5,821 nucleotides of DNA from a virus (taxonomy: Duplodnaviria; Heunggongvirae; Uroviricota; Caudoviricetes), in the IMG/VR virus record IMGVR_UViG_2713896782_000017; one strand, given 5' to 3'. Shown piece by piece: positions 1 through 3,349 of the stretch. Both the position numbers and the translations under genes were made by a program. The first letter of the stretch is position 1. The number at the start of each line of letters is the position of its first letter. The notes beneath the pieces are model-generated. The model was given only the letters and a program-made list of their open reading frames with translations, was not told where the DNA came from and made no database searches.

Positions 1-270
1 GGCCACCAGCAGAGGCGGCATTGCCTTTTCGATCGCCGGTAACAGAGCCTGCATTTTTTCAACTGCATCAGGGGTGTCTTTCTCTATCCAGCGGAAAATT
101 TTCTGGGTATTGCGAGCCAGGGCTTCCGGATGGCTGTCGTCGTACAGTTCAGGAAACGTCATACCCAACTCAAAATAAGCCTGGGTTATTCCAGCTGCCG
201 GAACTTTTTCGCCATCAGGACGCGCCCAGGCATTCATCGCCATGCGGATGTGTTCATGCTTGATTTTCAT
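1..270 (-). CDS. YdaT-family (CII-position) prophage protein, partial; C-terminus lies beyond the left edge of the window
   Basis: Minus-strand frame open from ATG at 270..268 through position 1 (checked codon by codon), giving MKIKHEHIRMAMNAWARPDGEKVPAAGITQAYFELGMTFPELYDDSHPEALARNTQKIFRWIEKDTPDAVEKMQALLPAIEKAMPPLLVA. Purine-rich SD (AAGGGGGG) 4 nt upstream on the minus strand. Lies directly downstream of the Cro-like gene, the position YdaT occupies in Rac-type immunity regions. The N-terminal MKIKHEHI and the W..K..T....EK.Q.L.P.I pattern resemble YdaT as I remember it; not verified by search. Not in the ORF track because there is no in-window stop. Confidence 0.6.
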   Translation of the reverse strand, partial: MKIKHEHIRMAMNAWARPDGEKVPAAGITQAYFELGMTFPELYDDSHPEALARNTQKIFRWIEKDTPDAVEKMQALLPAIEKAMPPLLVA

Positions 271-496
271 GAATCCCCCCTTGGTTAGAAGGCGGATTAT
301 GATCAGAATCGGGAATGACAACCGTCGGTATGTGTAACTCATATTTGAGCGCCCCGGCAGTGACTGCCTGAATTAGCAACGCCCATTTCCACGGAACGTC
401 TTCCCCCCACATGCTGACTGTGGTTTTTGACGTTCCTAGAGCGGCGGCTGTTTTAACAACTCCGCCAAAATAGCCTAATACTTCTGATTTTTTCAT
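254..496 (-). CDS. Cro-like HTH regulator (DicC/YdaS-like), about 80 aa
   Basis: ORF track gives 254..544 (-). I place the start at the ATG at 496..494 (MKKSEVLGYFGGVVKTAAALGTSKTTVSMW...), which has GGAG 6 nt upstream; the ATGs further upstream lack an SD. The G..T.AA.LG.S...VS.W..G..P pattern is a Cro/XRE-type helix-turn-helix. It is divergent from the repressor gene, and its 3' end overlaps the YdaT-like start by 17 nt. Confidence 0.65.
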   Translation of the reverse strand: MKKSEVLGYFGGVVKTAAALGTSKTTVSMWGEDVPWKWALLIQAVTAGALKYELHIPTVVIPDSDHNPPSNQGGIHENQA

Positions 497-587
497 GAGT
501 CGCTCCATAAAACTGAACGCCAAAAGTTTAATAATCAAAACCAAAGAAAGTCAAGAAACAAAACCATCTGTGTTTTAAAATCAAAAC
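497..587. promoter_or_regulatory. Divergent promoter/operator region between the Cro-like and CI-like genes (PR/PRM analogue)
   Basis: 91 bp AT-rich intergenic region. Minus-strand -35 TTGACT (554..549) with a weak -10 candidate about 17 bp downstream (526..531 region), reading toward the Cro-like gene. Plus-strand -10-like TAAAAT (576..581) ends 6 nt before the CI ATG at 588 and there is no SD, implying a leaderless cI mRNA as in lambda PRM. The 8-mer ATCAAAAC occurs at 534..541 and 580..587, and an inverted-repeat element TGTTTT-N6-AAAACA sits at 571..588. Confidence 0.5.
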
Positions 588-1226
588 ATGAACAAGCAAA
601 CAATATCTGAACGCATAACCCAACGTATGCATGCGCTAAACTTGAAAGGCAAAGACCTTGTCAATGCCACTGGCGCATCAAAAGGCTCCGTAAGTCAATG
701 GATGAACGGTGGAGGAGCGCCGTCCTCGCGTTACATAAGTTCACTGGCAAAGATATTGAAAGTAAACGAAAATTGGCTTCTTAATGGAGGAGAGTTAAAT
801 ACAGGTGATTCGCTTGATCTATCTTTACCGCCGATAAAAACGGTTCCGCTACTATCACTTCAGCAGGCAGCAAGCTGGAGTGATTATATGAAAAATTCCT
901 CAATAACCTCTTGTGTGCAGCTTGTCGGAGAAATCCCGGCCAATACCTTTGCTGTTGTTCTAGAGAGTGACAGTATGTCGACATCTGGTGGTGGAGTTTC
1001 CATCCCAAATGGTTCAACAGTTTTTGTTGATCCCGATCGAATCGTACAACCAGGAAATATTGTCCTTGCCTTACCCAAAGGGACCACAACGCCTGTCATT
1101 CGCAAACTGGAGATAGAAGGGCCGGATATTCTTTTAGTCCCCACGAATCCTCGCTACCCTTCAATTATGCTGGATGATCTATCTTGCATATTGGGAGTAT
1201 GCTTTAAAATTCAACAAGATATTTAA
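588..1226 (+). CDS. CI-like prophage repressor: N-terminal XRE-type HTH plus C-terminal LexA/S24 autopeptidase domain, 212 aa
   Basis: Complete ORF. N-terminal HTH (QRMHALNLKGKDLVNATGASKGSVSQWMNGG). The C-terminal part aligns by eye with lambda CI: SDSM against GNSM (catalytic Ser), PVIRKLEIEG against FTFKKLIRDSG (catalytic Lys), LLVPTNPRYPSIM against FLQPLNPQYPMIP. Divergent from the Cro-like gene. The linker has QQAASW where lambda CI has VQAGMF, so a canonical Ala-Gly cleavage site is not evident. Confidence 0.85.
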   Translation: MNKQTISERITQRMHALNLKGKDLVNATGASKGSVSQWMNGGGAPSSRYISSLAKILKVNENWLLNGGELNTGDSLDLSLPPIKTVPLLSLQQAASWSDYMKNSSITSCVQLVGEIPANTFAVVLESDSMSTSGGGVSIPNGSTVFVDPDRIVQPGNIVLALPKGTTTPVIRKLEIEGPDILLVPTNPRYPSIMLDDLSCILGVCFKIQQDI

Positions 1227-1254
1227 CCAACCTCATCTATTTGATTAACTGTAT

Positions 1255-1271
1255 GCCATCGTAGTGATGGC
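1255..1271 (+). other. Hairpin just downstream of the repressor stop (GCCATC-gtagt-GATGGC), without a U-tract
   Basis: Perfect 6 bp inverted repeat with a 5 nt loop, 29 nt after the CI stop codon. No following T-run, so it is not a canonical intrinsic terminator; it may be a stability or processing element or a binding site. Confidence 0.3.
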
Positions 1272-1286
1272 GTAACAGCTGCCTGC

Positions 1287-1339
1287 TTAAAATGTTTTGA
1301 TAAAAAAACATTGACCTTAAATGTTCGTTTTTCTAAACT
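1287..1339 (+). promoter_or_regulatory. Candidate sigma70 promoter (dicBp-like) with an upstream operator-like motif, driving the ydfA-to-dicB gene string
   Basis: -35 TTGACC (1311..1316), 17 bp spacer, -10 TAAACT (1334..1339), preceded by an A/T-rich UP-like stretch. Immediately upstream, TTAAAAT-GTTTTGAT (1287..1301) contains the reverse complement of the ATCAAAAC 8-mer found twice in the cro-cI intergenic region, and shares the TTAAAAT heptamer with the site at 575..581. Confidence 0.4.
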
Positions 1340-1518
1340 TCATTCATTCCCTCACCCCGCCCCACAGAATGCAGGGCAATACTTCGAGTTACCAGGCAGT
1401 GGTCAGGGGTTAAGTAGCCAGCCCGAGGCGTAAGAACATGACGGCAGGGTTCAACTTTAATAACTATGCAGCAGGTTTTTGTTCCGCTACCCCGGCGTTA
1501 AGGGGAAATGAGGTCAAC

Positions 1519-2858: not shown

Positions 2859-2908
2859 NNNNNNNNNNNNNNNNNNNNNNNNNNNNNNNNNNNNNNNNNN
2901 NNNNNNNN
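2859..2908. other. Run of 50 N (assembly gap or masked sequence) flanked by an identical 15 bp direct repeat
   Basis: N from 2859 to 2908. CGCTGCAACGCCCTC occurs at 2844..2858 and again at 2909..2923, consistent with two contig ends that overlap by at least 15 bp being joined with an arbitrary gap, or with a collapsed tandem repeat. Confidence 0.9.
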
Positions 2909-3160: not shown

Positions 3161-3349
3161 ATGGAAACGTTATTACCAAACGTTAATACGTCTGAAGGTT
3201 GTTTTGATATTGGTGTTCTGCTCAGTAACCGGGAGTTTACTGAAGATGCCATTAACATGAGGAAATATGAGCCTTATCTGCTCAATGATAATTCCATACT
3301 TTCCCGAATTGCTCTTCTTGAACTTGGTATTTTCGGAGAACGTCAATGA
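3161..3349 (+). CDS. dicB: Cell-division inhibitor DicB (MinC-activating small protein), 62 aa
   Basis: ATG at 3161 with GAGGA 7 nt upstream. The N-terminus METLLPNVNTSEGCFDIGV...FTEDAIN matches Qin DicB as I recall it (METLLPNVNTSEGCFEIGV...); the C-terminal half diverges. The ORF track entry 3056..3349 carries a 5' extension from an upstream GTG/TTG-type start that I do not accept. Directly downstream of dicF. Confidence 0.8.
   Translation: METLLPNVNTSEGCFDIGVLLSNREFTEDAINMRKYEPYLLNDNSILSRIALLELGIFGERQ

What the first reader, a model, noticed from the sequence alone, without database searches (positions are those of the whole stretch)
523..1301. Shared operator-like motif at both promoters flanking the repressor gene
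ATCAAAAC occurs at 534..541 and 580..587 in the cro-cI intergenic region, and its reverse complement GTTTTGAT at 1294..1301 just upstream of the dicBp-like -35. TTAAAAT precedes the motif at both 575..581 and 1287..1293. I found no other copies when scanning the window by eye. This suggests the same repressor (and/or the Cro-like protein) binds both regions, linking the immunity switch to the dicB-operon promoter.
Basis: seen in the sequence. Interest (0 to 1): 0.45.

Follow-up and report, generated by a model that had tools for sequence, protein, structure and literature searches.

The report
Prophage repressor operators at two promoters
The repeated 8-base motif is part of a 20-base palindromic binding site for the prophage's own lambda-type repressor, found at both early promoters; this is the textbook phage immunity layout, here with an operator sequence I found no description of.

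Summary
The 8-mer is locally enriched (4 in the window against 0.5 expected; about 45 times the chromosome density). A fourth copy, inside dicB at 3201-3208, was missed. The flanking TTAAAAT is not conserved at the second promoter.

The 8-mers are fragments of 20-bp dyad sites with consensus WWGTTT-N8-AAACWW:
- OR1, 524-543
- OR3, 570-589
- OL2, 1292-1311, a perfect palindrome
- OL1, 1321-1340
- a weak candidate OR2, 547-567

They overlap a cro-side promoter (TTGACT/TAAACT), the start codon of the cI-like gene, and the dicB-operon promoter (TTGACC/TAAACT).

The repressor (588-1226) has an HTH domain plus a Peptidase_S24 domain. Relatives only 43-53% identical, from Symbiopectobacterium, Regiella, Phlomobacter, Arsenophonus and a metagenome, keep the same recognition helix. 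They carry the same operator at the same positions, and all 14 strong matches fall in the two regulatory regions.

Prophages with other repressors (K-12 Qin, Rac, phage Tritos) have a different palindrome of their own in the same two places.

This is the standard lambdoid OR/OL arrangement with a new specificity. Protein binding was not tested.

The parts
254..496 (-). cro-like gene (80 aa, P22_Cro family), transcribed away from cI and followed by a ydaT-like gene (1-270)
   Evidence: Pfam P22_Cro E 1e-15. PDB match to P22 Cro 1rzs, E 3e-8. RefSeq annotation 'Cro/CI family'.
524..543 (.). Operator OR1, AAGTTTAATAATCAAAACCA (9 of 12 to ATGTTT-N8-AAACAT). Its left half holds the -10 of the cro promoter.
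   Evidence: Invariant in the 83-98% identical variants. The positional equivalent is present in all five distant loci.
525..554 (-). PR-like promoter for cro: -35 TTGACT (554-549), 18-bp spacer, -10 TAAACT (530-525)
   Evidence: Consensus scan, 9 of 12. Both hexamers are invariant in variants. TTGACT or TTGATC and TAAACT are kept in the distant loci (intergenic sequences printed). Promoter activity was not tested.
547..567 (.). Candidate weak operator OR2. The right half CAAAAC (559-564) lies exactly 23 bp from the same hexamer in OR1 and in OR3. The left half is poor and overlaps the PR -35.
   Evidence: Direct repeat D4, 530-543 / 553-566. Scores only 6-9 of 12-14 depending on register, which is noise level by count. 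The block GTCAAGAAACAAAAC is conserved in L091 and L094. Tentative.
570..589 (.). Operator OR3, GTGTTTTAAAATCAAAACAT (11 of 12). Its right half ends in the cI ATG (588). Its spacer holds a -10-like TAAAAT (576-581), at -12..-7 from the A of the ATG.
   Evidence: Every relative has this site ending in ...AAACATG, with a -10-like hexamer at -12..-7.
588..1226 (+). cI-like repressor, 212 aa: N-terminal HTH (recognition helix SKGSVSQW) plus a C-terminal Peptidase_S24 domain
   Evidence: Pfam Peptidase_S24 E 8e-13, HTH_3 E 2e-4. Full-length match to lambda CI 3bdn; the N-terminal domain matches P22 C2 and 434 repressor from residue 1. Residues 1-13 are conserved in distant relatives.
1292..1311 (.). 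Operator OL2, ATGTTTTGATAAAAAAACAT (12 of 12; perfect 8-bp arms over 1291-1312). It abuts the -35 of the dicB-operon promoter.
   Evidence: (I25). Conserved in variants apart from T/A at position 7. Equivalent sites 58-78 bp after the cI stop in 4 of the 5 distant loci; the L094 equivalent is weak.
1311..1339 (+). PL-like (dicBp-like) promoter: -35 TTGACC (1311-1316), 17-bp spacer, -10 TAAACT (1334-1339)
   Evidence: Consensus scan. Aligns with the Rac TTGACA/TATAGT promoter. TTGACA-17-TAAACT in L010. Activity not tested.
1321..1340 (.). Operator OL1, ATGTTCGTTTTTCTAAACTT (10 of 12), between the -35 and -10. Its right half contains the -10.
   Evidence: (I4). Present at the same register to the -10 in all five distant loci, and recovered there as the top long-range inverted repeat with OR1. 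By match count alone in the window it is at noise level.
3201..3208 (-). Fourth copy of the 8-mer, inside dicB. No dyad partner (GTTTTGATATTGGTGT). Probably chance, not an operator.
   Evidence: sequence. Not among the dyad matches.

Best explanation
The 8-mers are fragments of 20-bp two-fold symmetric operators, consensus WWGTTT-N8-AAACWW, for the immunity repressor encoded between them (CI-like, HTH + S24, 588-1226). The layout is that of a lambdoid immunity region. On the cro side, OR1 covers the -10 and spacer of the rightward-type promoter that drives cro, ydaT and the replication genes. A weak OR2 would cover its -35. OR3 covers the cI start codon and a -10-like hexamer placed to give a leaderless cI mRNA. 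After cI, OL2 and OL1 bracket the -35 of the promoter that drives ydfA-dicF-dicB-ydfD-recE, and OL1 covers its -10. [quoted passage not shown] OR3 would allow autoregulation. The Cro-like protein, whose helix-turn-helix shares G-x-S-K-x-[ST]-V-S-x-W with CI, probably uses the same sites in a different order of preference. What is shown: the sites, their symmetry, their positions relative to promoter-like hexamers, their conservation with the recognition helix, and their replacement in other immunity cassettes. What is inferred: binding, repression, which protein prefers which site, the leaderless transcript, and OR2.
For: 1. The dyad GTTTT-N6-AAAAC (at most 1 mismatch) occurs 3 times in 5.8 kb, always in the two regulatory regions. 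A perfect 8-bp-arm palindrome lies at 1291-1312.
2. At 11 of 12 or better, the 20-bp pattern occurs twice in the 0.8-kb region and twice in 150 kb of host chromosome. At 12 of 12 it occurs zero times in that 150 kb.
3. The sites overlap promoter-like hexamers on both sides.
4. In 83-98% identical variants the operator blocks are invariant, while the bases between them (566-569, 1317-1321, 1286-1290) vary.
5. Five relatives at 43-53% identity keep ASKG[SAT]VSQW. All 14 of their matches at 10 of 12 or better lie in the cro-cI intergenic region or 58-112 bp after the cI stop. In three of the five loci at most 4 of 300 shuffles reached the observed count; in the other two 12-19 of 300 did. An unbiased repeat search recovers OR1/OL1 as the top long-range inverted repeat in four of the five loci.
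6. Other cassettes carry their own palindrome at the same two places: K-12 Qin TGTTAG-N6-CTAACA, Rac ATTAGGC..GCCTAAT and Tritos AATGTACT..AGTACATT.
7. Homology to those cassettes resumes at about 1351, just after the PL -10.
8. The proteins match lambda CI, P22 C2, 434 repressor and P22 Cro.
9. The literature reports the same two-promoter operator logic for DicA in K-12 Qin (PMC10448788).
Against: No binding or expression data exist for this repressor. OR1, OL1 and OR2 are at noise level by match count within the window alone, and rest on position and conservation. The consensus was derived from these sites, so the information-content figures are partly circular. The half-sites overlap -10 hexamers, so some conservation could be due to the promoter. 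OL1-OL2 spacing varies from 29 to 34 bp, which is not an integral number of helical turns, so cooperative binding is uncertain. The best palindrome on the cro side is OR3, over the cI start, not OR1. That is not what a lambda-like affinity order for CI would predict. If OR2 is real it is centred at -31.5 from the proposed cI start site, unlike lambda OR2 at about -42 (the lambda position is from my own knowledge).
Confidence: 0.85

Rival explanations
1. The similarity reflects duplicated promoter architecture rather than a repressor site. PR and PL would be inverted copies of one promoter module (-35, A/T-rich spacer, -10 TAAACT, upstream A-tracts acting as UP elements), and the conservation would come from RNA polymerase contacts.
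For: TAAACT is the -10 of both promoters and lies inside OR1 and OL1. In L093 the inverted repeat between the two regions extends to 32 nt and includes the -35. The sites are A/T-rich.
Against: OR3 and OL2, the two best palindromes, do not lie on the PR or PL hexamers. Dyad symmetry, with GTTT and AAAC each kept in 51-54 of 54 half-sites, is not a promoter property. OL2 spacers vary freely while the half-sites are kept. Cassettes with other repressors have different palindromes around similar promoters.
Confidence: 0.06
2. The ATCAA part of the motif marks sites for the CII-like YdaT protein encoded downstream of cro. Its published box is TTGATT-N6-AATCAA, and in Rac it also binds the racR-ydaS intergenic region.
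For: AATCAA occurs inside OR1 (533-538) and OR3 (579-584), and TTGATA inside OL2. YdaT binds the Rac intergenic region and a box over the ydaT start codon (PMC11879457; PMC9986795). A good YdaT box, TTGATTTTCATGAATCCC, lies at 260-277 over the ydaT start here.
Against: With up to 3 mismatches the YdaT-box pattern matches 3 times in the window against 5.6 expected. In variants and distant relatives the ATC bases change (ATCG, ATAC, ATAT) while GTTT/AAAC stay.
Confidence: 0.04
3. Chance recurrence of an A/T-rich 8-mer in A/T-rich intergenic DNA.
For: The 8-mer is common genome-wide: 13 copies in 150 kb, which extrapolates to several hundred per genome. A fourth copy sits in dicB with no partner. 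Dyad matches at 9-10 of 14 occur at chance frequency.
Against: None of 200 shuffles reach 4 copies. There are three copies in 0.78 kb, against at most 2 per 800 bp in 150 kb of chromosome. They have a palindromic context. Position and sequence are conserved in five distant lineages.
Confidence: 0.03

Closest known systems
Phage lambda / P22 / 434 immunity regions (CI or C2 repressor, Cro, tripartite OR, and OL at PL)
   Same: Divergent cI and cro genes. CI has an HTH plus a LexA-like S24 domain. Several dyad operators lie in the intergenic region, spaced about 23 bp apart. The same operator is repeated at the early-left promoter downstream of cI. The operators overlap the -10 and -35. The cI start codon has no Shine-Dalgarno sequence and is placed for a leaderless mRNA, as at lambda PRM (the lambda comparison is from my own knowledge). 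In the endosymbiont relatives the downstream promoter leads to an N-peptide gene with boxA/boxB-like sequences.
   Different: The operator sequence and geometry are different: WWGTTT-N8-AAACWW, 20 bp. Only two OL sites are evident, and they bracket the -35 at 29-34 bp spacing. The best OR site is the one over the cI start. The scissile position reads Ala-Ala rather than Ala-Gly. The E. coli version has no N gene. The left operon carries dicF/dicB.
DicA/DicC-dicBp switch of the Qin cryptic prophage, E. coli K-12 (Bejar 1988; Yun 2012; PMC10448788)
   Same: Same gene order: cro-like gene, repressor gene, then promoter with ydfA..dicF-dicB-ydfD. The repressor's operator is present both in the divergent intergenic region and at dicBp (PMC10448788). 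The consequence is the same: the immunity repressor silences DicF and DicB.
   Different: The repressor here is a 212-aa CI with an S24 domain, not the 135-aa DicA. The operator is ATGTTT-N8-AAACAT, not TGTTAG-N6-CTAACA. The window also has a conserved leader of about 98 nt that K-12 Qin lacks. DicA is not SOS-cleavable and is controlled by the antirepressor Rem (PMC10448788).
RacR / YdaS / YdaT module of the Rac prophage
   Same: A cro-like gene followed by ydaT on one side. Repressor palindromes occur four times in the intergenic region and twice around the -35 of the downstream promoter. The same conserved leader follows that promoter. A YdaT box lies over the ydaT start (PMC11879457).
   Different: RacR is an unrelated short repressor with the operator ATTAGGC..GCCTAAT. 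The Rac left operon carries kilR rather than dicB.

Membership tests
Lambdoid CI/Cro immunity region with OR and OL operators | Divergently transcribed repressor and cro genes separated by a short regulatory region | tested here: met
   cro at 254-496 (-) and cI at 588-1226 (+), with a 91-bp gap. The arrangement is the same in all relatives.
Lambdoid CI/Cro immunity region with OR and OL operators | Repressor with an N-terminal HTH and a C-terminal LexA/S24 autoprotease domain with catalytic Ser and Lys | tested here: met
   Pfam HTH_3 and Peptidase_S24. In the alignment to lambda CI 3bdn, S149 and K192 correspond to S129 and K173.
Lambdoid CI/Cro immunity region with OR and OL operators | Ala-Gly (or Cys-Gly) scissile bond for RecA-stimulated self-cleavage | tested here: not met
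   Lambda A111-G112 aligns with A94-A95. Relatives have A-V, A-E or A-A, and only the Regiella protein has A-G. Whether the protein is cleaved is therefore open.
Lambdoid CI/Cro immunity region with OR and OL operators | Several dyad-symmetric operators of one sequence family in the intergenic region, overlapping the divergent promoters | tested here: met
   OR1 and OR3 are clear and OR2 is weak, with 23-bp phasing of CAAAAC. They overlap TTGACT/TAAACT and the cI start.
Lambdoid CI/Cro immunity region with OR and OL operators | The same operator family at a second early promoter downstream of the repressor gene | tested here: met
   OL2 at 1292-1311 and OL1 at 1321-1340 around TTGACC/TAAACT. 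Conserved in relatives.
Lambdoid CI/Cro immunity region with OR and OL operators | Operator specificity travels with the repressor as an exchangeable immunity cassette | tested here: met
   Qin, Rac and Tritos have different repressors and different palindromes at the same places. Homology resumes at about 1351.
Lambdoid CI/Cro immunity region with OR and OL operators | Repressor and Cro physically bind the operators and repress PR and PL | not testable with these tools
   Needs EMSA, footprinting, reporter fusions or ChIP.
DicA regulon of Qin (K-12) | DicA-type repressor (135 aa, no S24 domain) and the TGTTAG-N6-CTAACA operator | tested here: not met
   The repressor is 212 aa with an S24 domain. 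The K-12 operator is absent from the window's regulatory regions.
YdaT (CII-like) box | Inverted repeat TTGATT-N6-AATCAA (PMC9986795; PMC11879457) | tested here: not met
The one good box is at 260-277, over the ydaT start.

The most novel reading that the evidence does not exclude
This CI and its WWGTTT-N8-AAACWW operator define an experimentally uncharacterised immunity group that runs from E. coli O157 and other E. coli prophages and phages to prophages of insect-associated Enterobacterales. Because the repressor has an intact S24 catalytic dyad, this copy of the dicF-dicB operon in O157:H7 may be derepressed by DNA damage, unlike the DicA-controlled copy studied in K-12. If so, it would link SOS to DicF/DicB-mediated division arrest and virulence regulation.
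Probability: 0.3. Interest if true: 0.45.

Novelty: new member of a known kind. Interest (0 to 1): 0.25.

Why it matters
O157:H7 carries several dicF/dicB copies on different prophages, and DicF has been tied to virulence and division control. Published work on dicB regulation in O157 used the K-12-type DicA and DicC. Its dicB primers match the dicB copy in this window, whose operon instead sits behind a different, CI-type repressor with a different operator (PMC6915034). Knowing the operator and promoter layout tells experimenters which repressor controls which copy. It gives exact sites to mutate. It also raises a testable question: is this copy SOS-inducible? On annotation, RefSeq calls only the C-terminal 112 aa of the repressor in this genome, so the DNA-binding domain is missed. 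Beyond that, the finding is a standard example of lambdoid immunity architecture.

Tried and rejected
1. Scoring the window with a 14-position consensus. Matches at 9-10 of 14 are as common in shuffles as in the real sequence, so match count alone cannot support OR1, OR2 or OL1.
2. The YdaT-box reading of the motif. It was rejected because the pattern does not fit the sites.
3. BLASTP of the CI N-terminal domain against Cro gave no alignment. The shared G-x-S-K-x-[ST]-V-S-x-W was seen only by eye.
4. The genome-contig scan returned a single relative. A viral-contig scan with the Symbiopectobacterium CI returned none. The 80 viral loci are 99-100% identical and were not informative.
5. The conserved leader at 1351-1450. 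It has no Rfam match at E up to 1, its single-sequence fold is no better than shuffles, and blastn found no similarity to HK022. I could neither support nor exclude a put-like antiterminator RNA.
6. Literature searches found no paper describing this operator or repressor. The held library is incomplete, so this is not proof of absence.

Full report
**What the window is**

The window is 100% identical to a stretch of E. coli O157:H7 strain TR01. More than 1000 complete E. coli genomes carry the same segment at 97.7% identity or better. It is the early region of a Qin/Rac-like lambdoid prophage. The features, in order, are:
- a ydaT-like gene (1-270, - strand)
- a P22_Cro-family cro gene (254-496, - strand)
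- a 212-aa CI-like repressor with HTH_3 and Peptidase_S24 domains (588-1226, + strand)
- a DUF1391/ydfA gene, and ydfB- and ydfC-like ORFs
- a masked run of N (2860-2908)
- DicF RNA (2935-2986; Rfam 75 bits)
- dicB (3161-3349) and ydfD
- a recE fragment and an integrase fragment

Three phage records in GenBank carry the same immunity module at about 98% identity.

**Checking the observation**

The three 8-mers and both TTAAAAT heptamers are at the stated coordinates. The window holds 4 copies of the 8-mer against 0.51 expected, and none of 200 shuffles reached 4. It has no dyad partner.

In 150 kb sampled from the same chromosome the 8-mer occurs 13 times and never more than twice within 800 bp. 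The 8-mer is therefore ordinary genome-wide. Three copies in 0.78 kb is roughly a 45-fold local excess.

**What the motif really is**

Each copy sits inside a longer dyad.
- GTTTT-N6-AAAAC, allowing one mismatch, matches exactly three times in the window: 526-541, 572-587 and 1294-1309.
- The repeat finder shows perfect 8-bp arms, AATGTTTT/AAAACATT, at 1291-1312. It also aligns 571-589 with 1293-1311.

Across variants and relatives, the near-invariant core is GTTT...AAAC with A/T flanks. This gives a 20-bp site, WWGTTT-N8-AAACWW.

The sites in the window are:
- OR1, 524-543 (9 of 12)
- OR3, 570-589 (11 of 12)
- OL2, 1292-1311 (12 of 12)
- OL1, 1321-1340 (10 of 12)

A possible weak OR2 lies at 547-567. 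Its right half, CAAAAC, is exactly 23 bp from the same hexamer in OR1 and in OR3 (family D4).

By match count alone, only OR3 and OL2 exceed chance within the window. The other sites rest on position and conservation.

**Relation to promoters**

The consensus scan finds two relevant promoter-like sites:
- TTGACT-18-TAAACT on the - strand (554-525), pointing into cro
- TTGACC-17-TAAACT on the + strand (1311-1339), pointing into the ydfA-dicF-dicB operon

In both, the -10 TAAACT is embedded in the outer half of an operator (OR1 and OL1). The second operator lies over the -35 (OR2) or next to it (OL2).

OR3 ends in the cI start codon. There is no Shine-Dalgarno sequence. A -10-like hexamer, TAAAAT at 576-581, lies at -12 to -7 from the A of the ATG. 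This is the geometry of a leaderless transcript. It is an inference; no transcript mapping is available.

**Evidence from close variants**

CI variants at 83-89% identity have an unchanged recognition helix. In their contigs the operator blocks are invariant, while the bases between them change at 566-569, 1317-1321 and 1286-1290.

Two changes are informative:
- TTAAAAT at 1287-1293 is not conserved.

**Evidence from distant relatives**

Five relatives at 43-53% identity were recovered with their flanks. They come from Symbiopectobacterium purcellii, a Regiella endosymbiont, Phlomobacter, Arsenophonus and a metagenome. All keep ASKG[SAT]VSQW and have a P22_Cro-family gene lying divergently upstream.

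Scanning each 3.6-kb locus with ATGTTT-N8-AAACAT gave 14 matches at 10 of 12 or better. Every one lies either in the cro-cI gap or 58-112 bp after the cI stop. Per locus, the observed counts are 2-3 against 0.3-0.9 in shuffles.

In all five loci:
- one site ends ...AAACATG, with the ATG being the cI start
- the hexamer at -12 to -7 is AATAAT or AAAAAT
- one site holds the -10 TAAACT (TAAATT in the Regiella locus) of a TTGAC-type promoter on each side

Four of the five also have a second site just upstream of the downstream -35. In L094 that second site is weak.

An unbiased repeat search on the five loci returns the OR1/OL1 pair as the leading long-range inverted repeat in four of them. In the metagenome locus it is 95% complementary over 19 nt.

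In the endosymbiont prophages the downstream promoter leads to an N-peptide gene. The Regiella locus has boxA/boxB-like sequences. This identifies the promoter as a PL equivalent.

**Specificity travels with the repressor**

Other immunity cassettes show the same two-place arrangement with a different palindrome:
- K-12 Qin (DicA) has TGTTAG-N6-CTAACA in the dicC-dicA gap and twice at dicBp.
- Rac (RacR) has ATTAGGC..GCCTAAT four times in the gap and twice around its downstream TTGACA.
- Phage Tritos has AATGTACT..AGTACATT in both places.

Sequence homology between the window and Rac or Tritos begins at about 1351, a few bases after the PL -10. The second promoter and its operators therefore belong to the exchangeable immunity cassette.

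The literature states the same logic for DicA in K-12: operators at dicCp and dicBp analogous to lambda PR and PL (PMC10448788).

**Mechanism proposed**

CI dimers on OR1 (and possibly OR2) and on OL1/OL2 exclude RNA polymerase from both early promoters. This silences cro-ydaT-replication on one side and ydfA-dicF-dicB-recE on the other. OR3 gives autoregulation of cI.

Cro probably shares the sites. Its helix-turn-helix, G-T-S-K-T-T-V-S-M-W, resembles G-A-S-K-G-S-V-S-Q-W in CI. I saw this by eye; BLASTP found no alignment.

Uncertain points:
- OR3, not OR1, is the best palindrome.
- OL1-OL2 spacing is 29-34 bp.
- The proposed OR2 would be centred at -31.5 from the proposed cI start.

**Rivals**

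- Promoter duplication without repressor binding is disfavoured. The two best sites are off the PR and PL hexamers, and dyad symmetry is kept while the spacers vary.
- The YdaT (CII-like) box TTGATT-N6-AATCAA does not fit the sites. A good box does lie over the ydaT start at 260-277, as in Rac (PMC11879457).
- Chance is excluded by the local enrichment and the cross-lineage conservation.

**Comparison with known systems, and novelty**

The proteins match full-length lambda CI, the N-terminal domains of P22 C2 and 434 repressor from residue 1, and P22 Cro. Every defining feature of a lambdoid immunity region that I could test is met except one. The canonical Ala-Gly cleavage bond reads Ala-Ala here, although the catalytic Ser and Lys are present.

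It is not a member of the DicA system. The repressor and the operator both differ.

I found no paper describing this operator. I file it as a new member of a known kind: a new immunity specificity in a textbook architecture.

**Verdict**

The mechanism is ordinary. Interest is modest (0.25). It comes mainly from which repressor controls this O157 copy of dicF/dicB, and from whether that copy responds to DNA damage.

Noticed in passing
window 1351-1450 (also L008 2501-2596, L009 2501-2598, L010 about 2330-2410, L094 about 2300-2365): A leader of about 98 nt immediately downstream of the PL-like promoter is 95-99% conserved among prophages and phages with unrelated immunity cassettes (Rac, Tritos, Evi and many vB_Eco phages). 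It is still recognisable in Symbiopectobacterium and in a metagenome contig. On six sequences RNAalifold gives a hairpin whose stem covaries (8 of 25 pairs with double changes) around an invariant CGAGUUAC, followed by an invariant UAAGUAGCCAGCCCGAGGCG..GAACAUGACGGC. There is no Rfam match, and the single-sequence fold is no better than shuffles. It may be a cis-acting leader RNA (antitermination or processing). K-12 Qin lacks it.
   Followed up: partly
window 588-887 (L001 8339-8638): RefSeq/PGAP annotates the repressor in NZ_CP033605 as a 112-aa 'LexA family protein' starting at 888, and a phage record starts it at Met14. The full 212-aa ORF from ATG 588 is needed for helix 1 of the HTH. Residues 1-13 are conserved in relatives at 43-53% identity, and the protein aligns with P22 C2 from residue 1. 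The DNA-binding domain is therefore missing from the public annotation, probably because the start has no ribosome-binding site.
   Followed up: yes
window 260-277: TTGATTTTCATGAATCCC matches the published YdaT box (TTGATT-N6-AATCAA) with 2 mismatches and overlaps the ydaT start codon (268-270, - strand), as in Rac. A promoter-like site on the + strand inside cro (TTAACA-18-AATACT, 453-482) could be the counterpart of the reverse promoter PracR4 in ydaS, that is, a PRE-like route to cI.
   Followed up: partly
window 867-872 (codons 94-95 of cI): The position that aligns with the lambda CI Ala111-Gly112 cleavage bond is Ala-Ala. Relatives have Ala-Val, Ala-Glu or Ala-Ala, and only the Regiella protein has Ala-Gly. 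Catalytic Ser129 and Lys173 are conserved. RecA-dependent cleavage of this repressor family is therefore uncertain.
   Followed up: partly
window 1249-1285: After the cI stop there is a hairpin, GCCATC-GTAGT-GATGGC (1249-1265), with no T tail. The octamer CTGCCTGC (1278-1285) just upstream of OL2 recurs in the same place in the distant loci L091 and L094. Its function is unknown; it could be a cI terminator remnant or another binding site.
   Followed up: no
window 3161-3182 and 3327-3349: The dicB qPCR primers used in a published O157:H7 study of DicA/DicC (PMC6915034) match this window's dicB exactly. The DicA and DicC cloned there are the K-12-type proteins from another prophage. dicB signals measured in O157 may therefore mix copies that are under different repressors.
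   Followed up: partly
window 2860-2908: A run of 49 N (masked sequence) lies between near-identical flanks (...CCCCGCTGCAACGCCCTC N49 CGCTGCAACGCCCTCTG...), just upstream of DicF. The flanks suggest a short duplicated or repeated segment hidden by the mask.
   Followed up: no
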